Virus record (IMG/VR): IMGVR_UViG_3300013115_000259
DNA length: 20,000 bases
Reading direction: 5' to 3' (one strand)
Source: an uncultured virus (IMG/VR IMGVR_UViG_3300013115_000259)
Lineage: Duplodnaviria > Heunggongvirae > Uroviricota > Caudoviricetes
A program made the translations under genes and the position numbers. Shown here piece by piece: positions 1,844 through 18,029 of this stretch. The stretch's first letter is position 1. Every line of letters starts with the position of its first letter. The notes under the pieces were generated by a model. It searched no databases, was not told the DNA's origin, and was given only the letters and a program-made list of their open reading frames with translations.

Positions 1844-2524
1844 ATGGCATCGTTTGGATGGGCATATGTTGATTGTACAGAGACTGATGGAGCTTTTAGT
1901 GGGCCCACTGGTTCGGTTTTATTTGTAACGGGTACAAAAAAAGCCACTGGTGTTACTAATTTTATGTACTATACAGCCTCTACTGGCGAATTAGCAGCTA
2001 GTACATTGGTGTTGACAGGAACTCTTATTGTTAGTGGGAATATTAGCGCTAGCCATTATCATATTGAAAATGTTGCTGTTATTGATTCCACTGGTTCTAC
2101 TTATTTCGGTAATAGTAACGATGATATGCATCGCCGTACCGGTAGTTTAACTGTGATGTCGGGCGCAACGTATTTATTTAGTGCATCGGCTATAACAGAA
2201 AGGGTGTGGGTAAGAGGATTTGGCGCAAAATATTCAGCAGTTGGAGTAGCCGCTAATCCGTATCATGTTTCTTCTAGTGATTATATTTTGGGAGTTAAAG
2301 ATAGTAATAATGTAACCATATATCTTCCTAGCGCATCAGTGTCGCGACCCGGGGCCATGTTATTGGTAAAAGATCAAGTTACTTCCCGCGCCACTAAAAT
2401 AGTAATTTCAGCTTCTGTTCCTGCGGGCGGTTTCACTATTGATGGCGATTCTTATTATACTATGGCTGGCACCATGGCAGCAATTAGTCTATATTCGGAC
2501 GGAACGAATTGGTTTGTATATTAG
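1844..2524 (+). CDS. Fibre/decoration-like structural protein (paralogue family member 1)
   Basis: 226 aa, S/T/G/A-rich. C-terminal domain DYILGV..NVTIYLPSA..G..LLVKD..TIDG..ISLYSDGTNWFVY is shared with the next three genes. Confidence 0.65.
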   Translation: MASFGWAYVDCTETDGAFSGPTGSVLFVTGTKKATGVTNFMYYTASTGELAASTLVLTGTLIVSGNISASHYHIENVAVIDSTGSTYFGNSNDDMHRRTGSLTVMSGATYLFSASAITERVWVRGFGAKYSAVGVAANPYHVSSSDYILGVKDSNNVTIYLPSASVSRPGAMLLVKDQVTSRATKIVISASVPAGGFTIDGDSYYTMAGTMAAISLYSDGTNWFVY

Positions 2525-2539
2525 GAGGAGCGGTGTTGA

Positions 2540-3589
2540 ATGGCATACAATGTTTTATCTGGCACCGTAATTGCCGCCCAAGAATATACACCTAGTACGC
2601 TTGTTGTCGGAAACATTGTTTCCGGAAATCTGAGCACTTCGGATGGAGCTAACGTTATTAATGTTCCACGTGTATCTAATGCCACTAATAATGCGATTCT
2701 TACTAATGTAGGTGGTGACGCGAACTCTATAACGTGCGAATCAAATCTGACTTTTGATGGGAGCACGTTGTCTCTCACTGGCGATCTTACTGCTAGTGTG
2801 GGAGTTTCTGCGTCCTATTTTGAGGGCGACGGCAGTAGATTAACAGGAATTAGTGCCGGCGGTGGTGGTGGAGGGGGTTCCGCCTCTGCAGGGCCCGCAT
2901 ATTCATTACAGTTTGTAACAGCATCGGGAAGAAGCGGCACAACCGGATCCGTCAAATTATTATACTCTAGTAATAATTTAACGTTTACAGGAAGTCTTAG
3001 GGTGAGTGGCACCACTTATTTGGATGGCAATTTGGTGCCTACTTTGGGAAGTACTCATGACTTAGGAACGTCTGCTAATCCGTGGGGATCATTATATGTG
3101 GATGCCGGCACAATTTATATGGGCTCTGACGCTCTTACGGTAGCTGATAATAACTTGAAATTTGGCTCTGGAAGTACTACAAAAGGCTTTGATGTAGGCT
3201 TTATGAATTTTAAGAATAATGGAATCTTTATGGATCCAGGATTTTTGTTTAAGCTCCGAGCTTATCAAATTCAAATGTTTGGGGGGATTGGATATGTTAG
3301 AAGAGTAGTGGCAGATGATTATACAATTCAAGAAATTGATTATTTAGTAGGAATCCAATCAGACACTCTTACAGCTTCAGTTACATTAACTCTTCCTTCT
3401 GCCGATGGTGTCTTAAATGGGCAGACATATGCTATAAAAGACGAGGGAGGTAACGCTTCAACGTATCCAGTGATTATAAGGACTCAGGGAAGCGATACTA
3501 TTGATGGGCAAACTTCAATAGTTTTAGAATCACCTTATGCAGCAATTCAGCTTTATTGCAACGGGCTCAATAAATACTTCGTTTACTAG
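2540..3589 (+). CDS. Fibre/decoration-like structural protein (paralogue family member 2)
   Basis: 349 aa with AGGAGG RBS. Contains SNLTFDGSTL, a Gly6 linker, the fibre-type motif LVPTLGSTHDLGTSANPWGSLY, and the shared C-terminal domain (TLTLPSA..IKDEGG..TIDG..ESPYAAIQLYCNGLNKYFVY). Confidence 0.65.
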   Translation: MAYNVLSGTVIAAQEYTPSTLVVGNIVSGNLSTSDGANVINVPRVSNATNNAILTNVGGDANSITCESNLTFDGSTLSLTGDLTASVGVSASYFEGDGSRLTGISAGGGGGGGSASAGPAYSLQFVTASGRSGTTGSVKLLYSSNNLTFTGSLRVSGTTYLDGNLVPTLGSTHDLGTSANPWGSLYVDAGTIYMGSDALTVADNNLKFGSGSTTKGFDVGFMNFKNNGIFMDPGFLFKLRAYQIQMFGGIGYVRRVVADDYTIQEIDYLVGIQSDTLTASVTLTLPSADGVLNGQTYAIKDEGGNASTYPVIIRTQGSDTIDGQTSIVLESPYAAIQLYCNGLNKYFVY

Positions 3590-3609
3590 AAATTTAAAGG
3601 ATCCAGGCG

Positions 3610-3617
3610 CCTATTTA
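3610..3617 (+). promoter_or_regulatory. CCTATTTA, variant of the putative late promoter box
   Basis: 7/8 match to ACTATTTA, intergenic, just upstream of the twin-hairpin leader. Confidence 0.55.
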
Positions 3618-3622
3618 GTAAT

Positions 3623-3684
3623 AAGCGGGGATACGTGTATGCGTAATCTCGCTTGCATTTGGATAGGTGTATGCCTATTCAGAT
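3623..3684 (+). promoter_or_regulatory. Structured 5' leader: two tandem hairpins sharing a GTGTATGC apex
   Basis: Hairpin 1 (3623-3654) has 13 pairs including G-U plus one A-A mismatch. Hairpin 2 (3657-3684) has 12 consecutive pairs including G-U. Both have a GUAU loop closed by U-G then G-C. Confidence 0.65.
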
Positions 3685-3714
3685 AAGCTAACTATTTCTT
3701 GGAGGATATATAAT

Positions 3715-5274
3715 ATGGCTTATAAATTTCAATTTGGGGCTGCTACTATGAGTGGCTCCTTAGTACAGGAGGAAGGTATTACTACGACCACACTTAGTGC
3801 AACTGGTGATGTCGATCTGGGTAACGCTACTACCGATACTGTTACAGTAACCGGTCAGTTTGATTCGGATCTTATCCCTTCTACTGATAGTGCCCGTGAT
3901 TTGGGTACTTCTGCTAAACAATGGGCGGAAGCTCACATCGATGCTGGTTACATCGATGCAATTACAGTAACTGGTACGTCAACTTTGACTACTGTTGATA
4001 TCAACGGTGGTAATATTGATGGAACCGTAATTGGTGCTGCATCCGTTGCAGCTGGTACATTTGCCGCTGTTGCTGGAACAACGGGTACCTACTCTGGTGT
4101 TCTTAAGACAGACGATACAACTGAAGCAACTTCAACAACTGACGGTTCTTTACAGACCGATGGTGGTTTAAGTGTTGCTAAGAGTGCAGTTATCGGTGAT
4201 GACTTGGACCTCTTGTCTGATTCGTCAGTTCTTTCGATGGGCCTCGGCTCGGATATTACGTTTACTCATGATGGTACAACTGGTCTAACCATTGCTGCTA
4301 CGCCAATCTCTGTTAAATCAGTTGGAGATTTAACTCTGTCTTCGTCCACCGACATCGTTCTCGATGCTATTGGTGGAAACTTTGAATTCAAAGATGCCGG
4401 TACTGCAAAATTGACTATCGATCTTGATACCACTGCAGGCGACGTTGATGTAAATCTCATGGTTGATGGCGATGATTTGGTTTTCAATCAGTTTGATGGA
4501 ACTGAAGTAATGAGATTAACGGATGACGGCGAAGTTCAAATTACGGCAGGACTCATACCAGACGCCAACGATGGTGCTTATCTCGGTACAACTGCCAAAC
4601 AGTTTAGCGATCTCTTCCTTGCGGAAGGTGCCGTTATCAACTTTGATAATGGTGATTTGACGCTGACACAAACTGGCGATGCTCTGGTTCTTGCCGGCGA
4701 CGGTGTTCCTAAGTTAACTGCTACTCTGACTAACGCGCTTTCTAAAGCTGCTAACTCAGGTTTGGGCGGAACGACTTATGACGCTTCTTCTGCTGTTTCC
4801 GACTGGAAACTAGACATGAACACGCTAACCGCAGCTGCAGTTGATGTGGCTCTCGATAGTGTTGCTATCATTGATTCTAGTGACTCTAATCAAACACGCA
4901 AAGAAAGCATTGCGGACTTAGTTTCAGGAATGGCGGGAACTGGTCTTTCCGCTACCAATGGAGTACTTTCTGTTGGCGCTGCAAGCACTCCTAATGGAAT
5001 TGGAGATGCCAATGCAGTCATGGCAGAAGGGCTTAACTATGGTACCGCTACTTTCACTGCTGCTCGTGTTTGGACGATGCTTGGTTCGGTTAACTTATCT
5101 GCTGGCGATGTTGTTCGCGTGAAGGCTCCTGCTGGAGTTTCCACTACTAACACGTTGACGATCACTGCTAGTGGTGCACAGACTTTCGATGGAGAATCAA
5201 TCTTGAAGATTGAATCACCTTATGGTGGTATCTCTCTTTTCTACGTTGCTGCTGATACATTTGTGATTATCTAA
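3715..5274 (+). CDS. Long fibre-like structural protein (paralogue family member 3), 519 aa
   Basis: Start moved from GTG 3667 to ATG 3715 because GGAGG lies at 3701-3705 and MAYKF matches the MAYNV starts of the paralogues. T/D/G/A-rich, with two LIP..D...LGT..KQ(W/F) repeats and the shared C-terminal domain (TFDG..IESPYGGISLFYVAADTFVII). Confidence 0.7.
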   Translation: MAYKFQFGAATMSGSLVQEEGITTTTLSATGDVDLGNATTDTVTVTGQFDSDLIPSTDSARDLGTSAKQWAEAHIDAGYIDAITVTGTSTLTTVDINGGNIDGTVIGAASVAAGTFAAVAGTTGTYSGVLKTDDTTEATSTTDGSLQTDGGLSVAKSAVIGDDLDLLSDSSVLSMGLGSDITFTHDGTTGLTIAATPISVKSVGDLTLSSSTDIVLDAIGGNFEFKDAGTAKLTIDLDTTAGDVDVNLMVDGDDLVFNQFDGTEVMRLTDDGEVQITAGLIPDANDGAYLGTTAKQFSDLFLAEGAVINFDNGDLTLTQTGDALVLAGDGVPKLTATLTNALSKAANSGLGGTTYDASSAVSDWKLDMNTLTAAAVDVALDSVAIIDSSDSNQTRKESIADLVSGMAGTGLSATNGVLSVGAASTPNGIGDANAVMAEGLNYGTATFTAARVWTMLGSVNLSAGDVVRVKAPAGVSTTNTLTITASGAQTFDGESILKIESPYGGISLFYVAADTFVII

Positions 5275-5311
5275 TCTACGGCTTTCCTTAGATTTAAGAT
5301 CATATCTTTTT

Positions 5312-5346
5312 GGATGTCCCTCTTTACGGGGGGCATCCTTTTTTTT
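5312..5346 (+). terminator. Rho-independent terminator
   Basis: GGATGTCCCTC-ttta(c)-GGGGGGCATCC stem followed by T8. Confidence 0.85.
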
Positions 5347-5348
5347 AG

Positions 5349-5356
5349 ACTATTTA
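5349..5356 (+). promoter_or_regulatory. ACTATTTA box, putative late promoter
   Basis: Exact octamer 2 nt after the terminator T-tract, upstream of ATG 5392. Confidence 0.65.
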
Positions 5357-5391
5357 AGTAATGAAGCTAATTATTTGCGAGAGGATATAGA

Positions 5392-6537
5392 ATGGCTTAT
5401 AATGTTATTAAAGGGAAAATGGATGGTTTAGTAGGGCAACACGGCGATCAAGAAATAGAAGGAATTAAAGTTTTTAAAAATGTATTGAGCGCCAGTGTTT
5501 TTTACGATACTGATGCTGAAAGTCCTTGTGCTACTGAAAACAAAGTTGCTTTTGACGAATTAGTATTTGGGATCCCCAATGGCATCCTTGTATATGAAGG
5601 AGATAAAAAAGTCAAAACACCTTCTAATTTAACTTTTGATGGAAGTACACTTCATGGAGATCATGCTCATTTTGGCTTTTTTAAAGGATCCGCCAAAGAG
5701 CTACACCATATTCCGGGAGAGAAGGTAATTGGAAAGGTAAAGGGCGAAAATGTTAATTATGGTAGTGGTTTAGAAGCACACAGAGGCGTCTTAAAAGTGT
5801 GCGCTAAAAATGGCATCACTGTACTGGAAGAAGGAGTTCAGGTAGATGTGGCAATGGATGGTGGACTATCCTTTAAAAATCAAAAGCTTGTTATTAATCC
5901 TTCTCATACTGTAGACATCGCCACCGGTGGCCAGAACATTAGTGATGGCGATATGATTCTCATACACGATTTAACACGAGGAGAAGTAAGACACACTACA
6001 GTAAAAAATTTATATGATGCCTCTATTGCGTTAAAGATTCCTCAGCCCGCCGGCGTTCGACACAGTCTCCAATACAAGGGCGCCAAAGAATGTGAGGGCA
6101 GCGCTAACTTGATATTTGATCCTCGCAGCGATGTTCTATCTGTCAAGGGAACTGTTAAAGCATTAAGTGCACAAATTTCGGAGAAGATGGAGATAAATGG
6201 CGATTTAGAAATAAATGGCGCTCTCTATAAAGACATAAAAGTTGTCAAAGATAAAACATACGACTTCCAGGCGTCAGATAGTACAGTGTTGTTTGATACT
6301 ACCGAACACAGAATTGAGGCAACGCTACCTCATCCTAAAGATAATCGCGGCAGAATTATTACAATTAAAACTTTTGCAGAACAAAAATATAAATTAAGCT
6401 GCCATGCTTTAACCATTGCCGCAGAGGATGGCTTGATAGATTTTTCTAAAGAAATCCGAATTAAAAATAATTATTCAATTCGTACCTTTCACTGTGATGG
6501 CGAGAATTGGTGGATTGTAAACAGAAGTGGCACATAA
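5392..6537 (+). CDS. Fibre/decoration-like protein (paralogue family member 4, charged variant)
   Basis: 381 aa with GAGAGG RBS. MAYNV start and SNLTFDGSTL shared with 2540..3589. C-terminal ATLPHP..GRIITIK..LIDF..TFHCDGENWWIV. Confidence 0.65.
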   Translation: MAYNVIKGKMDGLVGQHGDQEIEGIKVFKNVLSASVFYDTDAESPCATENKVAFDELVFGIPNGILVYEGDKKVKTPSNLTFDGSTLHGDHAHFGFFKGSAKELHHIPGEKVIGKVKGENVNYGSGLEAHRGVLKVCAKNGITVLEEGVQVDVAMDGGLSFKNQKLVINPSHTVDIATGGQNISDGDMILIHDLTRGEVRHTTVKNLYDASIALKIPQPAGVRHSLQYKGAKECEGSANLIFDPRSDVLSVKGTVKALSAQISEKMEINGDLEINGALYKDIKVVKDKTYDFQASDSTVLFDTTEHRIEATLPHPKDNRGRIITIKTFAEQKYKLSCHALTIAAEDGLIDFSKEIRIKNNYSIRTFHCDGENWWIVNRSGT

Positions 6538-7920: not shown

Positions 7921-9738
7921 ATGGCTGGTATTGTAGAAAGATTAACTGAAGGTATCATTAATCGTGATATGCGTGCCGAAGGTAACGCATTGTTAAATAA
8001 GTGGGAGGCTACTGGTCTTCTCGAAGGGCTTGGTTCTGATCAAAAGCGTCAGACAATGGCTCGATTGCTTGAAAATCAAGCAAAGGAACTCCTCCGTGAG
8101 AGTTCATCCATGGCAGCAGGTGATGTCGAAGGCTTCGCAGCCGTCGCGTTCCCCATCGTTCGCCGTGTTTTTGCAGGCTTGATCGCCAACGATCTCGTTA
8201 GTGTTCAGCCCATGAGTCTCCCAAGTGGACTCATTTTCTTCCTGGACTTCGTGTTCTCCCCTGACTTGGGAGCATCCGCTAGCCAGACCGACCGTTTTGG
8301 TAACTTAGTTAATAAGTCCATTTACGGTACTGATCAGGTTGGTAGCCAGATCACAGGTGGTGTAGACTTAGTCTCTTCAGACGCGTCCTCACTCTCTGGT
8401 CCGCGCAACAGTGCTCGCGGTTATGCATACGCATCTCCGTCCGCTAGTAGCGTTCAGTTCGCTGCTGGTACCGGCGTTGCTCTCAAGGATCAGTTCTACC
8501 TAGGCGGTGGCAACAGTATTACTTATGCTACTGACGCTCAGCTTAAGCTTATCGAATGGGATCCTGATCTCGTTGCGTTATCAGGCGGAAGCACTGCGTA
8601 CAAGGTAGTTGTTCTCGATCTCTTGAAGTCTACTTATACGGATGCTCAAACTGATATGGACAACTTGGCTGCATTCGAGATTAGTGGTGCCGCATGGAAC
8701 ACTTGTCTTGATGGACTCGCTAGTGATACTGCTTGTTCTTCAGTGCGTCGATTGACGACATTTGTTGCAGCAGGTAATACCGATCTGGCAACAGCAGCAG
8801 TTCGACATATTGGTATTATGACATCTGCAAGTATTGGTGGAGCAGGCTCTGCTTCTGTCGGTGCTGGACTTGGTGTACAGGTGCCAATTTATGACAATCT
8901 CACTAATGCTTCTGCATTGGGCGCGGTTGTCGGTACGACTGAATGGGGACTCGAAGGAAACGACCAAATCCCAGAGATCGACATCAAGGTCGACTCAGTG
9001 GCAGTCACCACGCAAACCAAAAAGCTCAAGGCTAAGTGGACGCCAGAGTTGGGGCAGGATCTTAATGCCTATCACAACCTTGACGCCGAAGTCGAGCTTA
9101 CCAGTATTCTTTCTGAGCAGATTGCTCTTGAAATTGACCGTGAGATTCTTGCGGATCTGGTAAATGGTGCAACCGCCAGTACGTACTACTGGGCTCGCTC
9201 ACCGGGCTTGTTCGTAGATCGTACAACTGGTACGGAGGTTGGTGCTAGCGCTGCTGCTCCAGACTTCACCGGTACCGTTAGCGAGTGGTATGAGACTCTG
9301 ATTGAGACCATCAATGATGTGTCCGCTCAGATTCATCGTAAGACTCTGCGCGGTGGAGCTAACTTCATCGTCTGCGGACCTGAAGTTGCTAATATCCTTG
9401 AGTTCACGGCTGGTTTCCGCGCAAGCGTAACCGCTGATGACGACAGGGGTACTGCTGGTGCAGTTAAGGTTGGTTCTCTTTCCAAGAAATTCGACGTTAT
9501 CGTTGATCCTTACTTCCTGCGCAACGTTGTCCTAGTAGGACGCCGAGGCTCTAGTTTCCTAGAGAGTGGATATGTATACGCACCTTATGTGCCACTACAG
9601 ACTACCCCCACGATCTTCGGCCCTGAAGACTTCGTGCCGAGAAAGGGTGTTATGACTCGTTATGCAAAGAAGATGGTTCGTCCTGATATGTATGGCTTGG
9701 TTATCATTCGCGGCTTGCTTGGTGAGTCTGGTTCCTAA
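7921..9738 (+). CDS. gp23: Major capsid protein, T4 gp23-like
   Basis: 605 aa. PIVRRVF..LIANDLVSVQPMSLPSGLIFFL, KLKAKWTPELGQDLNAYHNLDAEVELTSILSEQIALEIDREI and GYVYAPYVPL..FVPRKGVMTRY are gp23-family motifs. Perfect AAGGAGGT RBS at 7904-7911. Confidence 0.96.
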   Translation: MAGIVERLTEGIINRDMRAEGNALLNKWEATGLLEGLGSDQKRQTMARLLENQAKELLRESSSMAAGDVEGFAAVAFPIVRRVFAGLIANDLVSVQPMSLPSGLIFFLDFVFSPDLGASASQTDRFGNLVNKSIYGTDQVGSQITGGVDLVSSDASSLSGPRNSARGYAYASPSASSVQFAAGTGVALKDQFYLGGGNSITYATDAQLKLIEWDPDLVALSGGSTAYKVVVLDLLKSTYTDAQTDMDNLAAFEISGAAWNTCLDGLASDTACSSVRRLTTFVAAGNTDLATAAVRHIGIMTSASIGGAGSASVGAGLGVQVPIYDNLTNASALGAVVGTTEWGLEGNDQIPEIDIKVDSVAVTTQTKKLKAKWTPELGQDLNAYHNLDAEVELTSILSEQIALEIDREILADLVNGATASTYYWARSPGLFVDRTTGTEVGASAAAPDFTGTVSEWYETLIETINDVSAQIHRKTLRGGANFIVCGPEVANILEFTAGFRASVTADDDRGTAGAVKVGSLSKKFDVIVDPYFLRNVVLVGRRGSSFLESGYVYAPYVPLQTTPTIFGPEDFVPRKGVMTRYAKKMVRPDMYGLVIIRGLLGESGS

Positions 9739-10525: not shown

Positions 10526-10533
10526 ACTATTTA
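10526..10533 (+). promoter_or_regulatory. ACTATTTA box, putative late promoter
   Basis: Exact octamer after the terminator, upstream of ATG 10567. Confidence 0.65.
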
Positions 10534-10566: not shown

Positions 10567-10773
10567 ATGAACCCAAGAAGAAGATTATGGCTGAAAAACC
10601 TCCATAAAGAAAAAAAAACGACGGTAGAAACTGCTGTTGCGCCCACTCCCCCTGTTACCGCACCTAAGACTACGAGTACTGTGGCGCCTGCTGCTCCTAA
10701 AAAAGTGGTAAAAAAAGCTGCTCCCGCCAAAAAGCCTCTTAAGAAAGAGAAGAAGAAAAGTTCTAAGAAGTAA
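10567..10773 (+). CDS. Small Lys/Ala/Pro/Thr-rich basic protein (histone-H1-tail-like composition)
   Basis: 68 aa with AAGGAG RBS. APKKVVKKAAPAKKPLKKEKKKSSKK. Flanked by its own box and terminator. Confidence 0.7.
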   Translation: MNPRRRLWLKNLHKEKKTTVETAVAPTPPVTAPKTTSTVAPAAPKKVVKKAAPAKKPLKKEKKKSSKK

Positions 10774-13585: not shown

Positions 13586-16495
13586 ATGTCAGTTAAAAGT
13601 TTTAAGTTTGTATCTCCTGGGGTGTTTATCAATGAGATTGATAACTCCTTTATTCCAAAGTCTGCCGATACTATCGGCCCCGTCGTTGTCGGGCGCGCAT
13701 CTCGCGGCTTAGGCATGAAGCCTGTTAAGGTAGAATCTTATTCTGATTTCGTTACAATGTTTGGCGAAACAGTTCCTGGGAATGCCGGCGGTGATATTTC
13801 ACGCTATGGTAATTACCAGTCTCCAATGTATGGAACGTATGCCGCTAAGGCTTTTTTGAGAGCAAATGTAGCACCTTTGACATATGTACGTTTATTGGGA
13901 ACTCAAAACACCGATGCCACAACTGCTGGATATGCAGGCTGGGAGACGGAAAAAGATCCTGCCTCCACCATTGCTGAAAACGGAGGAGCTTATGGGCTCT
14001 TTATGTTCCCAAGTGCATCCGTGGTTTCTACTTCTTCAGTGGGCACTGGCTCATTAGCTGCCATTTGGTACCTTGATCAGTCTGCCTCCATTCAATTAAG
14101 TGGAACAATTTACAACAAAGCTGAAGGCGCCGGCACTGCTGATAATCGTACTGCGGGTATAGCTAAAGTATTATCGACTGATGCAAACAACCTTTTTACA
14201 GTAATACTCTCCAGTTCGGCTGCAGGTTCTGAACAGAAGATTAAATTCGGTTGGGACGACTCTGCTGAAACTTTCATTCGTGAACGTTTTAATACTAATC
14301 CTCAGCTAGTGTCAACGGCAGGGGCTTTTTACCCCAGTTCTGCACAGCAGCGTTATTGGCTTGGCGCTACTTTCGAGCAAGAAGTACGAGATAGAAGCAT
14401 GGTAGGTGCAGCAGCATATGGTGTTATTCTTCCCATCGCTCAACATACGACTGCCACCAAGGGCCCACATGCCCTGAGACAGTCAACTCGCGAAGCTGTT
14501 GCTGGATGGTTTATTGGACAAGATTTGAGTGGCGTTACTGGAAGCTATGCTCCCGCTGCCATGCAAAAACTATTCCGTCTGAAGGGAAGAGGACACGGTC
14601 AATGGCTTGATCGAAATGTTAAAGTTAGCATTGAAAAGCTCAGAGCATCGACAACTACTCTTAATAACTATGGAACGTTCTCGGTAGTTCTTCGCGACTT
14701 AAACGATAGTGACAACAAACAAGTTGTTTTGGAGCGTTTTGATAACTTGACTTTAGATCCTACGAGCCCTAACTATGTTGCGCGCAAGATCGGAGACAAA
14801 TATGAGGAATGGAGTTCGACTGAACGCCGATTGAAAGAATACGGCGATTATGATAACAAGTCTAAATTTGTCTACGTGTCGATGAACGATACAGTTGATG
14901 CCGGCGGAACTGACGAAGCTCTGTTGCCGTTTGGCTACTTTGGACCTCCTAAATATAATGATGCAACCCGAATCACGGGCAGTTTCTCCGATACGGTGAT
15001 TAACAATACCTTCATTTTCTCAGGTTCTAACCTCTTAAACGCCAACATGAACGCGATTTTAAGTGGAAACTACCAAGGTGATGGCGGTGCCGGTTTCCTA
15101 ACAGGATCGCTAACAGGATCGTTGAAGTTCCCACATGTTCGTTTGCGCGCATCTGCCTCCGATGGCGGATTAAGCGATCCAACACGAGCATGTTTTGGTA
15201 TGCAGACTACCCGAGAAGCAAACGGAACTACAGCCGATGCTAGCGTAGCTGATTACCATAAACTACTTTTTGCTGATTTCCCGGATGATCCTACGACATA
15301 TGGTTCGCAGGCACCTACTCAGCTTTCCGGCGCTCTCGCATGGGGGTATATCTTCTCGATGGATGACATTGGAACATCTTCAGCGAACGTATACCATTAT
15401 GTCTCAGGCGCCCGCAAGGCAGGTACTAGCGTGGGAAGTTATACTACTCTTTTGAATGCAGGATATGATAGTTTCACTGCCCCCTTCTGGGGAGCATATG
15501 ACGGTTTTGATATCAAGCTGCCGGATCCTCTATATAATGGCGGAATGACTGCGGGAACGAGTACTGAGCTTAATAGTGCTCCATACAACACCTACAAGCA
15601 AGCTCTTGATAGTGTTGCGGATCCTGAAGCAGTAGATATGAACTTGCTCGTTACTCCGGGTCTAACGTTTGATGCACTGACTGCGCATATGGTTAATGTA
15701 TGTGAAGAGCGTGCAGATTCCTTGGCTCTGATTGATTTGGCAAATGTTTACATCCCATCTTCAGAGGCATATTATTCTGATAAATCATCTAGAATTGGGA
15801 CAACCCCCACCAATGCATCTACTGCTCTTCGCGACAGGCGTATAGATTCCAGTTACGGCTGTACTTTCTATCCATGGGTACAAACCCGTGATGAAGCTAC
15901 TGGCCGACTATTGTGGGTTCCGCCCAGTGTCGCTATGATGGGTGTTCTTGCCTCTTCTGAGGCTAAAACCGAAATTTGGTTTGCACCCGCAGGATTTAAT
16001 CGTGGTGGTTTGAGTGAGGGTGCCGCTGGCATCCCCGTCACCGGTGTGACTGAGAAGCTGACATCTAAACAAAGAGATACGCTTTACGAGTCTAACATCA
16101 ACCCCATTGCCTCCTTCCCCTCCACAGGAATAGTTGTCTTCGGACAAAAAACACTACAAGAGCGTCAATCTGCTCTTGACAGAATTAATGTAAGACGATT
16201 GGTTATCTACTTGAAGAAGCAGATTTCGATTCTGGCAACACAGATTCTGTTTGAACAGAACGTTCAGGCTACGTGGAATCGGTTCAAGTCACTTGTTGAG
16301 CCGTTCCTTGCGAATGTTAAAACCCGATTTGGTATAACGGACTATAAGTTGATTCTAGATGAATCTACTACGACTCCCGACTTAATTGATCAAAACATTC
16401 TGTACGCCAAAATTATGATTAAACCGGCACGTGCTATCGAATTCATCGCAATTGACTTCGTGGTTATGTCAACCGGCGCATCATTTGAAGATTAA
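13586..16495 (+). CDS. gp18: Contractile tail sheath protein
   Basis: 969 aa. N-terminal FVSPGVFINEID and C-terminal WFAPAGFNRG, LYESNINPI, VVFGQKTLQ..SALDRINVRRL, FEQN and IKPARAIEFIAIDF are sheath signatures. Confidence 0.96.
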   Translation: MSVKSFKFVSPGVFINEIDNSFIPKSADTIGPVVVGRASRGLGMKPVKVESYSDFVTMFGETVPGNAGGDISRYGNYQSPMYGTYAAKAFLRANVAPLTYVRLLGTQNTDATTAGYAGWETEKDPASTIAENGGAYGLFMFPSASVVSTSSVGTGSLAAIWYLDQSASIQLSGTIYNKAEGAGTADNRTAGIAKVLSTDANNLFTVILSSSAAGSEQKIKFGWDDSAETFIRERFNTNPQLVSTAGAFYPSSAQQRYWLGATFEQEVRDRSMVGAAAYGVILPIAQHTTATKGPHALRQSTREAVAGWFIGQDLSGVTGSYAPAAMQKLFRLKGRGHGQWLDRNVKVSIEKLRASTTTLNNYGTFSVVLRDLNDSDNKQVVLERFDNLTLDPTSPNYVARKIGDKYEEWSSTERRLKEYGDYDNKSKFVYVSMNDTVDAGGTDEALLPFGYFGPPKYNDATRITGSFSDTVINNTFIFSGSNLLNANMNAILSGNYQGDGGAGFLTGSLTGSLKFPHVRLRASASDGGLSDPTRACFGMQTTREANGTTADASVADYHKLLFADFPDDPTTYGSQAPTQLSGALAWGYIFSMDDIGTSSANVYHYVSGARKAGTSVGSYTTLLNAGYDSFTAPFWGAYDGFDIKLPDPLYNGGMTAGTSTELNSAPYNTYKQALDSVADPEAVDMNLLVTPGLTFDALTAHMVNVCEERADSLALIDLANVYIPSSEAYYSDKSSRIGTTPTNASTALRDRRIDSSYGCTFYPWVQTRDEATGRLLWVPPSVAMMGVLASSEAKTEIWFAPAGFNRGGLSEGAAGIPVTGVTEKLTSKQRDTLYESNINPIASFPSTGIVVFGQKTLQERQSALDRINVRRLVIYLKKQISILATQILFEQNVQATWNRFKSLVEPFLANVKTRFGITDYKLILDESTTTPDLIDQNILYAKIMIKPARAIEFIAIDFVVMSTGASFED

Positions 16496-16558: not shown

Positions 16559-17146
16559 ATGGCATTTTGGTCAACCAACTTTGGTGAAGATACAACCCTT
16601 AAAGATCCAAAAAGAAAGTTTCGATTTACAGTAGAATTTCAAGGAATTCAGGCAGCACAGGGTGGTGCAATATTATGGTATGCAAAAACTGCAGCCAAGC
16701 CTAGTTTCCAGGTGGCAGAGGCAACTCATAAGTTCCTTAACCACACCTTTTATTACCCAGGTTCAGTAACATGGCAAGATATCTCTATAACGCTGGTGGA
16801 TCCAGTCGATCCAGATATGGCTGCAACTCTTTCTGACATTGTGGTACAATCAGGATATACTCCACCAACGGATGCTAATTCGTTATCTACGATGTCTAAG
16901 GCTAAGGCCGCTGGTGCTTTAGGGACAGTTATTATTACTCAAATCGATTCAGATGGAAAGCCGCTTGAAACATGGACTCTTTGGAATTCCTGGATTAAAG
17001 AAGTTAAGTATGGCGATCTAGGATATGATACCGATGATCTTACCGAAATGACGGTAGCTCTTAAATATGACTGGGCACGCGTAGAAACAGCTGGTCCCTC
17101 CGTCGCAGTTGCTGGCGCTGGTGGAACAGAATTCTTTAACGTTTAA
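16559..17146 (+). CDS. gp19: Tail tube protein (T4 gp19-like)
   Basis: 195 aa directly after the sheath. DPKRKFRF, YYPGSVTWQDISITLVD and ETWTLWNSWIKEVKYGDLGY..MTVALKYDWA match gp19-family tubes. Confidence 0.88.
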   Translation: MAFWSTNFGEDTTLKDPKRKFRFTVEFQGIQAAQGGAILWYAKTAAKPSFQVAEATHKFLNHTFYYPGSVTWQDISITLVDPVDPDMAATLSDIVVQSGYTPPTDANSLSTMSKAKAAGALGTVIITQIDSDGKPLETWTLWNSWIKEVKYGDLGYDTDDLTEMTVALKYDWARVETAGPSVAVAGAGGTEFFNV

Positions 17147-17171: not shown

Positions 17172-18029
17172 TTGTCAAGAAATAAAGGACGCTCAGGGGG
17201 CGCCCAACAACCGGACACAAGTCCACCACCACAAGTACTACAAGGGGAGCCTAGCGGTTTCTCCTTTGTTGTTCCTACAGAATTTGTGGAACTACCTTCA
17301 GGGGGTGAGCTATATCCGGAAGGGCATCCGCTCCATGGCGAGAGTACGATTGAGATACGTCAGATGACGGCGAAAGAAGAGGACTTGCTTACGTCCAGAA
17401 CCCTCCTTAAAAAAGGTGTAGCCCTGGACAGGGTGTTAGCTAATTTGATCGTAGACAAGCGCATTGACGGCGATTCTCTGTTGGTAGGAGATCGCAATGC
17501 GATCATCATTGCTATGAGAGTATCGGGATATGGTAATGATTATAATACTAAGGTAACATGTCCAGCCTGTAATGAGACTCAAGAATTTAATTTTGATTTG
17601 AACGAGGCTAATATCTACCACGGAGAGACAGAGAAAGAAGGTTGGGACATTACAGATAATGGAAATGGAACATTTGATCTTGTGCTTCCGAAGACACAGG
17701 TAACCGTAACCTTTAGGCTCTTAACGGGCAAAGATGAAAAAGCTCTATTCAGTGGAATGGAACAAGATCGTAAGCGCAAGACTTATGAGCAGACTGTGAC
17801 GCGTCAATTGGTAAATACAGTTGTGGCAGTCAATGGAGACAATTCTCCAGAAGCAATTAATTATTTGATTAATAATATTCCTTCATTAGATTCGAGGCAT
17901 ATTAGGCTTGCTTATCGCTTTGTGGCACCCAATGTTGATTTGACTCAACACTTTGAGTGCGGCGAGTGTGACTATGCGCAAGATATGGAGGTTCCGCTCA
18001 GCGCGGACTTTTTTTGGCCTGACCGGTGA
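17172..18029 (+). CDS. T4 gp26-like baseplate-hub / tail assembly chaperone
   Basis: 285 aa, TTG start with AGAGGT RBS. VELPSGG..YP and IRQMTAKEEDLL, two CxxC pairs (CPAC, CGEC), ending ADFFWPDR. Located between the tube and tape measure genes. Confidence 0.75.
   Translation: MSRNKGRSGGAQQPDTSPPPQVLQGEPSGFSFVVPTEFVELPSGGELYPEGHPLHGESTIEIRQMTAKEEDLLTSRTLLKKGVALDRVLANLIVDKRIDGDSLLVGDRNAIIIAMRVSGYGNDYNTKVTCPACNETQEFNFDLNEANIYHGETEKEGWDITDNGNGTFDLVLPKTQVTVTFRLLTGKDEKALFSGMEQDRKRKTYEQTVTRQLVNTVVAVNGDNSPEAINYLINNIPSLDSRHIRLAYRFVAPNVDLTQHFECGECDYAQDMEVPLSADFFWPDR

What the first reader, a model, noticed from the sequence alone, without database searches (positions are those of the whole stretch)
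3623..3705. Twin stem-loops with an identical GUGUAUGC apex in the leader of the largest fibre gene: candidate cis-regulatory RNA
Seen: between the promoter-like box (3610) and the GGAGG RBS (3701) lie two long hairpins 2 nt apart. Their stems differ in sequence but both carry GTGTATGC at the apex (3635-3642 and 3667-3674). Several G-U pairs point to RNA rather than DNA structure, and there is no U-tract. This leader (about 100 nt) is the longest in the window. Inference: a bivalent protein-binding operator (translational control or autoregulation), a processing or stability element, or a small RNA. I do not recognise it as a known family.
Basis: partly seen in the sequence, partly recalled or inferred. 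Interest (0 to 1): 0.75.

Follow-up and report, generated by a model that had tools for sequence, protein, structure and literature searches.

The report
Conserved structured leader of phage fibre gene
The two hairpins are real and are one phage's version of a folded RNA leader that many uncultured marine T4-like phages keep in front of the same tail-fibre-like gene, probably to control how long that messenger lasts or how much protein it gives.

Summary
Observation confirmed. Hairpin 1 (3623-3654) and hairpin 2 (3655-3688) fold far better than shuffles (z -4.6 and -3.4). Both carry GTGTATGC at the apex.

They lie between a promoter-like box CTATTTA (3611-3617) and GGAGG/ATG (3701/3715). All 9 copies of that box in the window are on the + strand upstream of genes.

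The structure is not private. In 93 distinct orthologous leaders from IMG/VR it starts exactly 12 nt after the box in 69. Mean fold z is -3.5, and the mRNA strand folds better than its complement in 86. Thirty other box-led genes have short leaders, median 12 nt.

Hairpin 1 keeps only its shape: 9 of 9 pairs covary. Hairpin 2 keeps shape and sequence (AUYUGGAUARG helix; 6 of 11 pairs covary). Its loop varies, and it occurs in two permuted topologies. It is single copy per phage record and matches no Rfam family.

The twin identical apex is private to this lineage and looks like a local duplication (16 of 19 bases, one compensatory pair).

Best reading: a gene-specific cis-acting 5' leader RNA, with a 5'-terminal protective hairpin and a sequence-specific helix read by an unknown factor. 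The mechanism is inferred. The transcript start is not mapped.

The parts
2540..3589 (+). Upstream gene, a baseplate-like protein of 349 aa. No terminator lies between its stop codon and the leader.
   Evidence: phrog_20556 baseplate protein, E 9.8e-07. Weak Pfam T4_gp9_10_N hit, 22 bits against a cut-off of 25. No terminator-like site between 3589 and 3715.
3611..3617 (+). Promoter-like box CTATTTA, a candidate late promoter. The predicted transcript start is about 12-13 nt downstream of the C.
   Evidence: All 9 copies in the window are on the + strand in intergenic DNA upstream of + strand ORFs. The same box precedes the orthologous leaders. The start site is inferred, not mapped.
3623..3654 (+). 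Hairpin 1: 12 pairs plus an A.A mismatch, loop UGUAUG. It begins at box+12, so it would be the 5' end of the mRNA.
   Evidence: -14.6 kcal/mol, z -4.64. The orthologous position always forms a hairpin of unrelated sequence: 9 of 9 pairs have changes on both sides and 81% of cells pair. The first paired base is at box+12 in 69 of 93 leaders.
3635..3642 (+). GTGTATGC copy 1, at the apex of hairpin 1.
3655..3688 (+). Hairpin 2: core helix 3657-3667 paired with 3674-3684, loop 3668-3673.
   Evidence: -13.2 kcal/mol, z -3.43. Model R1 hits only this site in the window, E 9.4e-08. Covariation is shown.
3657..3667 (+). Conserved helix strand AUUUGGAUAGG (family consensus AUYUGGAUARG), the sequence-conserved core of the family.
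   Evidence: Invariant or nearly invariant columns T, G, G, A, A, G, T in alignments A4, A5 and A6. It sits 59-77 nt before the ATG in 32 of 118 leaders under a strict regular expression that misses the CTGGAT variants.
3667..3674 (+). GTGTATGC copy 2, at the apex of hairpin 2.
3689..3700 (+). A/U-rich spacer predicted to be unpaired. It holds a box-like CTATTTC (3692-3698) that lies too close to the RBS to serve this gene.
   Evidence: In relatives the spacer is A-rich (ACCAUAAAAAAACUAUAAU) and unpaired in the predictions.
3701..3705 (+). Shine-Dalgarno GGAGG, 9 nt before the ATG.
   Evidence: Conserved as GGAGG(G) in the orthologues.
3715..5274 (+). Fibre-like or baseplate-attached protein of 519 aa (MAYKFQFG...). 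The N-terminal ~120 aa are widely shared and the rest is variable.
   Evidence: translation; 516 related stretches, many matching only residues 23-135. No PHROG, Pfam or PDB hit. Atlas leads point to tail-fibre C-terminal and T4 gp9/10 clusters, score 0.90-0.92.
5312..5338 (+). Intrinsic terminator ending the fibre transcript, followed by the next box at 5350.
   Evidence: 11-pair stem followed by TTTTTTTT. Box at 5350.

Best explanation
The twin hairpins are this phage's version of a conserved, gene-specific, structured 5' leader RNA. It belongs to a baseplate-fibre gene in a clade of uncultured marine T4-like myoviruses.

Shown:
- The structure is on the mRNA-sense strand.
- It begins at a fixed distance (12 nt) from a recurrent promoter-like box.
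- It is kept by compensatory change.
- It is single copy per phage record.
- It leaves the RBS outside the helices.

Inferred:
- Transcription starts at about 3623, so hairpin 1 is the extreme 5' end. Only its shape is conserved. It would shield the 5' end from 5'-end-dependent decay, as a 5'-terminal stabiliser stem-loop does.
- Hairpin 2 is an 11 bp helix of conserved sequence (AUYUGGAUARG with its partner strand, including G.U wobbles). It is kept even when its connectivity is permuted. This argues that an as yet unknown trans-acting factor, a phage or host protein or a nuclease, reads the helix and sets the stability or translation of this one late mRNA.
- In this phage the upper part of hairpin 1 has become a copy of the top of hairpin 2, which gives two such sites.
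For: Fold strength: z -4.9 for 3623-3688, against -15.1 kcal/mol for the complement.

Orthologous leaders (93 distinct leaders):
- Mean z is -3.47, and 73 of 93 are below -2.
- The + strand is more stable than the - strand in 86 of 93 (-19.3 against -12.1 kcal/mol, Wilcoxon p 1e-15).
- The first paired base is exactly at box+12 in 69 of 93, and within 1 nt in 80 of 93.

Control: 30 other box-led genes in the same loci have a median of 12 nt between box+12 and the RBS. Only 3 of 30 have 40 nt or more.

Covariation:
- Hairpin 1: 9 of 9 pairs change on both sides, 47 cells, 0 of 500 shuffles reach the score.
- Hairpin 2: 93% of cells pair, 6 of 11 pairs change on both sides, 0 of 500 shuffles, slid controls reach 29-49% paired.
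- Type B topology: 89% paired, 6 of 21 pairs change on both sides, and several G.U pairs are nearly invariant.

Copy number and context:
- Model R1 hits only the leader in 295 kb of loci. It is single copy or absent in records of 115, 72, 72, 45 and 18 kb.
- The 18-mer motif scan of IMG/VR gave 48 distinct contexts. Eighteen are this leader; the other 30 are scattered elsewhere, apparently in unrelated coding DNA.

Promoter box: 9 of 9 copies lie on the + strand upstream of genes.

Natural variants: the three SNPs inside the hairpins (3623 A>G, 3626 C>U, 3656 C>U) all keep the pair as G.U.
Against: - No transcript start is mapped. The single RNA run covered only diverged coding parts, as contigs.
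- No trans-acting factor is identified.
- The conserved GUGUAU stretch sits in a loop in some members and in a stem in others. That is unusual for a loop-reading protein.
- Part of the sequence conservation could be shared descent. The sequences are related, so the shuffle controls overstate significance.
- The predicted RBS accessibility is only moderate (0.44-0.75). Removing hairpin 1 and the 5' arm of hairpin 2 left it essentially unchanged in 6 of 8 leaders. No simple RBS switch is seen.
- My shuffles use a segment-swap method with 50 per sequence.
Confidence: 0.6

Rival explanations
1. Translational operator. A specific RNA-binding repressor, possibly the gene's own product or another late protein, binds hairpin 2 (two sites in this phage) and blocks ribosome entry. 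This would work like the T4 gene 43 hairpin operator.
For: The helix sequence is conserved next to a freely varying hairpin 1. The element is gene-specific and single copy. [quoted passage not shown] This phage has a duplicated site.
Against: Hairpin 2 ends 27-42 nt before the ATG and does not overlap the RBS. The loop is not conserved. The motif context differs between topologies. No candidate protein is known. This reading overlaps the best explanation and differs only in the claimed output.
Confidence: 0.2
2. Ribonuclease processing site. RNase III would cut the long helix (type B, or the stacked twin hairpins), or RNase E would cut the AAAUUU linker. That would mature or inactivate the fibre mRNA, or separate it from read-through transcripts of the upstream gene.
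For: No terminator separates the upstream gene from the leader, so read-through RNA must exist. Type B forms 21 pairs with small internal loops. In type A an A/U-rich linker lies between two stems.
Against: Type A stems have 11-13 pairs each, which is short for RNase III (recalled knowledge). In type B the AAAU stretch is partly inside the helix. Neither enzyme is known, as far as I recall, to need this much sequence conservation.
Confidence: 0.1
3. An RNA element that acts on RNA polymerase. It would be a promoter-proximal pair of hairpins that modifies elongation, in the manner of HK022 put or lambda nut.
For: Two hairpins lie directly after the promoter box. One part has a conserved sequence.
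Against: No terminator lies between the leader and the end of the gene. The only strong one (5312-5338) is followed at once by a new box. Type B has a single hairpin. There is no match to any Rfam model.
Confidence: 0.05
4. A DNA-level element or no function. It could be a protein-binding palindrome, a recombination linker for fibre-gene swapping (like PeSL cassettes), a coding N-terminal extension from GTG 3667, or chance.
For: The conserved motif is quasi-palindromic (AUCUGGAU). Fibre genes are mosaic: the N-terminus is conserved and the rest is variable.
Against: The + strand folds better than the - strand in 86 of 93 leaders, and conserved G.U pairs cannot be DNA or minus-strand pairs. The element is single copy per record, whereas PeSLs are multi-copy (title and abstract in the listing). 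In L004, L005 and L008/L009 the open frame begins 3 nt before the ATG. The hairpins are far more stable than shuffles.
Confidence: 0.04

Closest known systems
5'-terminal stabiliser stem-loops of bacterial and phage mRNAs, such as the two-hairpin ompA 5' UTR (recalled knowledge; no paper read here)
   Same: A hairpin at the predicted first nucleotides of the transcript, a second hairpin behind it, and an open A/U-rich stretch with the RBS after them. Hairpin 1 is conserved in shape only.
   Different: Hairpin 2 has a conserved sequence across distant phages. The 5' end is not mapped and no half-life data exist.
T4 gene 43 (DNA polymerase) translational operator hairpin (PMC3014915, passages seen)
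   Same: A T4-family phage, a hairpin some tens of nucleotides upstream of the start codon, gene-specific, and the top of the hairpin conserved between related phages.
   Different: The T4 operator also overlaps the RBS and its loop bases are the determinant. Here the loop varies and the helix strand is conserved. This is a late structural gene, not an early replication gene. No binding protein is known.
HK022 put and lambda nut promoter-proximal RNA elements (recalled knowledge)
   Same: Stem-loops directly downstream of a promoter, acting in cis.
   Different: There is no downstream terminator to overcome inside the unit. One family topology has a single hairpin. There is no sequence or Rfam match.
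PeSL promoter/stem-loop cassettes of T4-type phages (PMC2839356 and PMC4122927; titles and abstract starts seen in the listing)
   Same: A T4-type phage and a composite of promoter plus stem-loop next to variable genes.
   Different: PeSLs are early-promoter/terminator composites repeated many times in a genome and are proposed to drive DNA shuffling. This element is single copy, lies downstream of a late-type box and covaries as RNA.

Membership tests
Any Rfam 15 family | A covariance-model match at or near the family's gathering score. | tested here: not met
   Window 3400-3900 at E up to 10 gave only two noise hits (RNaseP_bact_b, 13.2 bits against 97; PutA thermometer, 15.5 against 51). 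Twenty related loci at E up to 1 gave no hit.
5'-terminal stabiliser stem-loop | The stem-loop begins within a few nucleotides of the transcript's 5' end. | tested here: inconclusive
   The first paired base is at box+12 in 69 of 93 leaders and within 1 nt in 80 of 93. The start site itself is inferred from box spacing and is not mapped (one search was uninformative).
5'-terminal stabiliser stem-loop | Function depends on structure, not sequence. | tested here: met
   In hairpin 1, 9 of 9 pairs change on both sides and there is no conserved sequence beyond the first GA.
5'-terminal stabiliser stem-loop | It lengthens mRNA half-life. | not testable with these tools
   This needs decay measurements.
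T4 gp43-type translational operator | A hairpin upstream of the start codon with conserved loop bases. | tested here: not met
   The hairpin is present, but the loops vary: UGUAU, UGCAU, UGCGU, UACGU, UUUA, UUCG.
T4 gp43-type translational operator | The operator overlaps the ribosome binding site and is bound by the gene's product. | tested here: not met
   Hairpin 2 ends at 3684-3688 and the GGAGG is at 3701. In relatives 20-35 nt of open spacer lie between them. Binding cannot be tested here.
HK022 put-like antitermination RNA | Two promoter-proximal stem-loops, plus terminators downstream in the same unit that are read through. | tested here: not met
   Two hairpins occur only in type A. 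There is no strong terminator before the end of the gene, and a new box follows the terminator.
Intrinsic terminator | A G+C-rich stem followed by a U-tract. | tested here: not met
   No terminator-like site is called at 3623-3690 on either strand.
PeSL or other repeated palindromic elements | Many copies per genome. | tested here: not met
   One R1 hit in the 20 kb window. In records of 18-115 kb the model hit at most one site per record (on both strands in two of them) and none in one record.
RNase III site (T7 type) | About two turns of near-continuous helix with an internal loop. | tested here: inconclusive
   Type B has 21 pairs. Type A, including this window, has two separate 11-13 pair stems. 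Cleavage cannot be tested here.

The most novel reading that the evidence does not exclude
The hairpin 2 helix (AUYUGGAUARG with its partner strand, including conserved G.U wobbles) is the operator of an undiscovered RNA-binding regulator. That regulator would set the amount or timing of one baseplate-fibre protein in a large clade of marine T4-like phages. It would be the first dedicated post-transcriptional switch for a late structural gene in this superfamily. The helix is recognised whichever end is closed by a loop, and this phage has evolved a two-site version.
Probability: 0.25. Interest if true: 0.75.

Novelty: new variant of a known kind. Interest (0 to 1): 0.55.

Why it matters
Structured leaders are known for a few early genes of T4. 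I know of no conserved, covarying, gene-specific leader RNA described for a late structural gene, and none for uncultured marine myoviruses.

The basis for "not described" is limited. Rfam 15 has no model for it. Two full-text searches found nothing relevant, but these were narrow word searches.

If the helix is a regulatory site, it would show that fibre dosage is controlled after transcription in abundant ocean phages. It would also give a compact RNA-factor pair to look for. Even as a plain stabiliser, it marks this fibre gene as the one late gene in the module that needs special mRNA handling. It also supplies a clean candidate late-promoter motif with a predicted start site for this phage group.

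Tried and rejected
- **Close relatives among cultured phages.** Megablast of 2500-5500 gave none. tblastn of the 519 aa protein gave none. Only the capsid finds distant relatives: Flavobacterium phage immuto 44%, Microcystis phage Mel-JY01 48%, RM378 44%.
- **RNA evidence.** The one RNA run (X20) held only diverged coding pieces as contigs and nothing over 3300-3785. It gives no information on expression or 5' ends.
- **rRNA mimicry or pairing.** The best match of hairpin 2 to E. coli rRNA is a 9-mer in 23S at position 2115. It is reached by 94 of 300 shuffles, so it is chance.
- **Anti-RBS switch.** Removing hairpin 1 and the 5' arm of hairpin 2 lowered the predicted RBS accessibility in only 2 of 8 leaders. 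The script stopped at the ninth on a pattern error.
- **Pairing of the conserved strand with the promoter-box RNA in read-through transcripts.** This is possible in the window (centroid). However, box variants CTACTTA and CTAATTA are not matched by changes in the motif (by eye). Rejected.
- **Upstream ORF.** The ATG inside the GTGTATGC copies is not conserved; the family has GTGTATC. Rejected.
- **Host identification through genome contigs.** This is too weak to name a host.
- **Earlier notes of this scan.** None exist for this place or sequence.

Full report
**Observation**

- The upstream gene ends with TAG at 3587-3589.
- A box CTATTTA lies at 3611-3617.
- Hairpin 1 spans 3623-3654. It has 12 pairs, one A.A mismatch, two G.U pairs and the loop UGUAUG.
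- Hairpin 2 spans 3655-3688, with its core at 3657-3684 and two or three G.U pairs.
- GGAGG is at 3701-3705 and ATG at 3715. The 519 aa ORF runs to 5274.
- GTGTATGC occurs only at 3635-3642 and 3667-3674 in the window.

The count of the 8-mer alone is not beyond chance: 18 of 200 shuffles give at least two copies. The folds are beyond chance:
- hairpin 1: -14.6 kcal/mol, z -4.64, 0 of 200 shuffles as good;
- hairpin 2: -13.2 kcal/mol, z -3.43, 1 of 200;
- both together: -28.5 kcal/mol, z -4.92, 0 of 200;
- the complementary strand: only -15.1 kcal/mol.

The upper 19 nt of the two hairpins (3630-3648 and 3662-3680) are 16 of 19 identical. One C-G to G-C exchange keeps the pair. The shared apex therefore looks like a local duplication or conversion, not two independent stems.

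**Context**

The window is the structural module of a myovirus. It holds a baseplate-like protein (2540-3589), the major capsid protein (7921-9738), the tail sheath (13586-16495), the tail tube (16559-17146) and a baseplate hub (17172-18029).

The capsid protein is only 44-52% identical to those of Flavobacterium phage immuto, Microcystis phage Mel-JY01, Rhodothermus phage RM378 and uncultured phages. This makes it a distant T4-like phage. No cultured phage has a close DNA match or a relative of the 519 aa protein. DNA runs that hold the stretch are labelled marine or seawater metagenomes.

The 519 aa protein has no PHROG, Pfam or PDB hit. It is Thr/Ser/Gly/Asp-rich. It shares its N-terminal ~120 residues with hundreds of viral contigs, while the rest varies. 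Its nearest Atlas clusters are leads only, towards tail-fibre C-terminal and T4 gp9/10 clusters at scores 0.90-0.92. "Fibre-like baseplate protein" is therefore a reasonable label but not a proven one.

**The box is a likely promoter**

All 9 copies of CTATTTA in the window are on the + strand. All lie in intergenic DNA upstream of + strand ORFs, several directly after terminators. Chance expectation is 3.8 copies on both strands together.

The distance from box to start codon is 36-42 nt for five genes, then 59, 67 and 104 nt. By analogy with T4-type late promoters (recalled knowledge), the start would lie a few nucleotides after the box. The start was not mapped. The only RNA run held diverged coding fragments as contigs.

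**Orthologous leaders**

I gathered leaders in three ways: with the fibre protein, with a pattern for the RBS plus the MAYKFQ start and with the motif itself. These gave 118 distinct leaders of this gene from IMG/VR. In 93 of them a box could be placed.
- The segment from box+12 to the RBS is on average 67 nt long.
- It folds with mean z -3.47. In 73 of 93 z is below -2, and in 3 of 93 it is above 0.
- The mRNA-sense strand is more stable than its complement in 86 of 93 (-19.3 against -12.1 kcal/mol, Wilcoxon p 1e-15).
- The first paired base is exactly at box+12 in 69 of 93, and within 1 nt in 80 of 93.

As a control I took 30 other box-led genes in the same loci. Their median is 12 nt between box+12 and the RBS, and only 3 of 30 have 40 nt or more. 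One of those three precedes a gene related to the fibre gene (L007).

The long structured leader is thus specific to this gene. It starts where the transcript is predicted to start. It is an RNA structure of the coding strand.

Caveats: the leaders are related to each other, and my shuffles (segment swaps, 50 per sequence) are rougher than the tool's.

**Two parts with different conservation**

*Hairpin 1.* In 19 two-hairpin leaders aligned from box to RBS (A5), hairpin 1 has unrelated sequences but the same shape.
- 81% of cells pair even though MAFFT misaligns some rows.
- 9 of 9 pairs have changes on both sides, in 47 cells.
- The covariation score is 0.663 against 0.258 in shuffles. None of 500 shuffles reach it.
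- Slid controls give 31-55% paired.

*Hairpin 2.* This keeps both shape and sequence. In 14 leaders (A4):
- 93% of cells pair;
- 6 of 11 pairs change on both sides, for example G-C to A-U next to the apex and U-A to C-G;
- 0 of 500 shuffles reach the score, and slid controls give 29-49% paired.

The conserved part is the strand AUYUGGAUARG (3657-3667 here), with invariant G, A, G and T columns.

*The loop is not conserved.* It reads UGUAU, UGCAU, UGCGU, UACGU, UUUA or UUCG. In a longer variant GGUGU pairs downstream and the loop is AUCU. GTGTATC is still enriched. It occurs in 14 of 91 leaders, 1.64 per kb against 0.07 per kb in all the loci then held. It is not a fixed apical signal, however. 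Only this lineage carries two copies: 19 occurrences of GTGTAT in 18 of 91 leaders. Among the first 81 loci, paired + strand copies of GTGTATGC occur only in L001 and L002, the near-identical records.

**A permuted helix**

A second group of leaders (type B) has one long hairpin. There the same strand AUCUGGAUAGG is the 3' arm, paired to an upstream CCUAUCUGGAU across a CAA loop. The following GUAUCUCGUUC pairs back to the first nucleotides GAGCGGGUAC.

On 10 such leaders, 89% of cells pair and 6 of 21 pairs change on both sides. Several G.U pairs are nearly invariant: 10 of 10, 9 of 10, and twice 8 of 10.

The same 11 bp helix therefore exists closed at either end. The window's hairpin 1 resembles the outer part of type B and of L003 (GAGCGGG ... 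GUGUAU ... CUCGYU). Its hairpin 2 is the type A form. This explains why the window has two copies of the core.

**Copy number and specificity**

A covariance model of hairpin 2 (R1) was run over 295,103 bases of the window and loci.
- It found 16 hits at E up to 1. All were at the orthologous leader, and three were the reverse-strand echo of a hit.
- In the window it hit only 3654-3690, E 9.4e-08.
- In five larger records (115, 72, 72, 45 and 18 kb) it hit at most one site per record, on both strands in two of them, and none in the record of L003, whose variant the model does not cover.

The 18-letter motif scan of IMG/VR gave 48 distinct contexts. Eighteen were this leader. The other 30 were scattered elsewhere, apparently in unrelated coding DNA, many in one prophage family.

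Only one of the 120 had the leader context, a 21 kb contig binned in a Legionellales MAG. That is a weak host hint at most.

**Natural variation**

Contigs of a marine run (X7) give two variants across 3532-3686. The three differences inside the hairpins are 3623 A>G, 3626 C>U and 3656 C>U. Each turns a Watson-Crick pair into G.U (with the pairing). This is a small count, but it agrees with selection on the sense-strand RNA.

**What it is not**

- It matches no Rfam 15 family.
- It is not a terminator, having no U-tract on either strand.
- It is not coding. Orthologues keep ATG plus the MAYKFQ start behind a spaced GGAGG. In L004, L005 and L008/L009 the open frame begins 3 nt before that ATG. 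The ATG inside GTGTATGC is not conserved.
- It is not a repeated element.
- It is not a DNA palindrome, given the strand asymmetry and the conserved G.U pairs.
- It is not an rRNA mimic by the one test I could make.
- It is not an obvious RBS-masking switch.
- There is no terminator inside the gene for an antitermination element to overcome. The strong terminator at 5312-5338 is followed by the next box at 5350.

**Mechanism: inference**

The anatomy is that of a leader built for post-transcriptional control:
- a stem-loop that begins at the predicted first nucleotide, with only its shape conserved;
- a second helix with a conserved sequence;
- an open A/U-rich spacer followed by a strong RBS.

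The first feature is what is known to protect bacterial mRNAs from 5'-end-dependent decay (recalled knowledge; the ompA leader is the textbook two-hairpin case). The second needs a reader that recognises sequence in a helix.

The closest T4-family precedent is the gene 43 operator. [quoted passage not shown] That operator, however, also covers the RBS and is read through its loop.

My estimates:
- about 0.85 that this is a selected, cis-acting leader RNA;
- about 0.6 for the composite reading (a 5' protective hairpin plus a factor-read helix that controls stability or yield);
- the pure translational-operator, processing-site and polymerase-modifier readings share most of the rest.

**Novelty**

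The general kind, a structured phage mRNA leader, is known. This family, its permuted conserved helix, its restriction to one late fibre gene and its spread in uncultured marine myoviruses are, as far as my checks go, undescribed. Those checks were Rfam and two narrow full-text searches. PeSL papers were seen only as titles and abstract starts. Supplements were not consulted.

Noticed in passing
window 906, 3611, 5350, 6564, 9804, 10527, 10833, 13527, 18305: CTATTTA occurs 9 times. All copies are on the + strand in intergenic DNA upstream of + strand ORFs, often right after a terminator. It is a candidate late-promoter motif of this phage group, with the RBS about 24 nt downstream in most genes.
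   Followed up: partly
window 10567-10773: A small ORF of 68 aa, very basic and Lys/Pro/Ala-rich (MNPRRRLWLKNLHKEKK...). It has its own box at 10527 and lies between two terminator-like hairpins. It is possibly a DNA-binding or internal virion protein.
   Followed up: no
window 2540-3589, 3715-5274, 5392-6537: Three consecutive genes start MAYN/MAYK/MAYN. The first two end with a shared ESPY..I.L(Y/F) motif. They look like paralogous baseplate-fibre proteins, but only the middle one has the long structured leader.
   Followed up: partly
loci L112, L142, L159, L191; L089, L090, L141, L160: More distant relatives of the same gene carry other structured leaders. One is a long GCGCCA...CCATGGCGCG hairpin abutting the RBS. 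Another is a long-range ACGGATGTGGATA ... CACCCGTTT closure. A structured leader seems to be a trait of this gene beyond the motif family.
   Followed up: no
L313 (contig PBLX01000051.1, 14628-15045): The same box, hairpin 1, hairpin 2, RBS and MAYKFQ arrangement lies on a 21 kb contig binned in a marine Legionellales MAG. This is either a mis-binned phage contig or a weak hint at the host.
   Followed up: partly
window 3692-3698: A second, imperfect box (CTATTTC) sits 3 nt before GGAGG, too close to give a leader with an RBS. Relatives have ACTATAAT or ACTTATAAT there. Its meaning is unknown.
   Followed up: no
window 7921-9738 and 13586-16495: The capsid protein (605 aa) matches the T4-type capsid profile only in residues 345-584. 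The sheath (969 aa) matches sheath profiles only in its C-terminal ~360 residues. Both carry large extra N-terminal parts.
   Followed up: no
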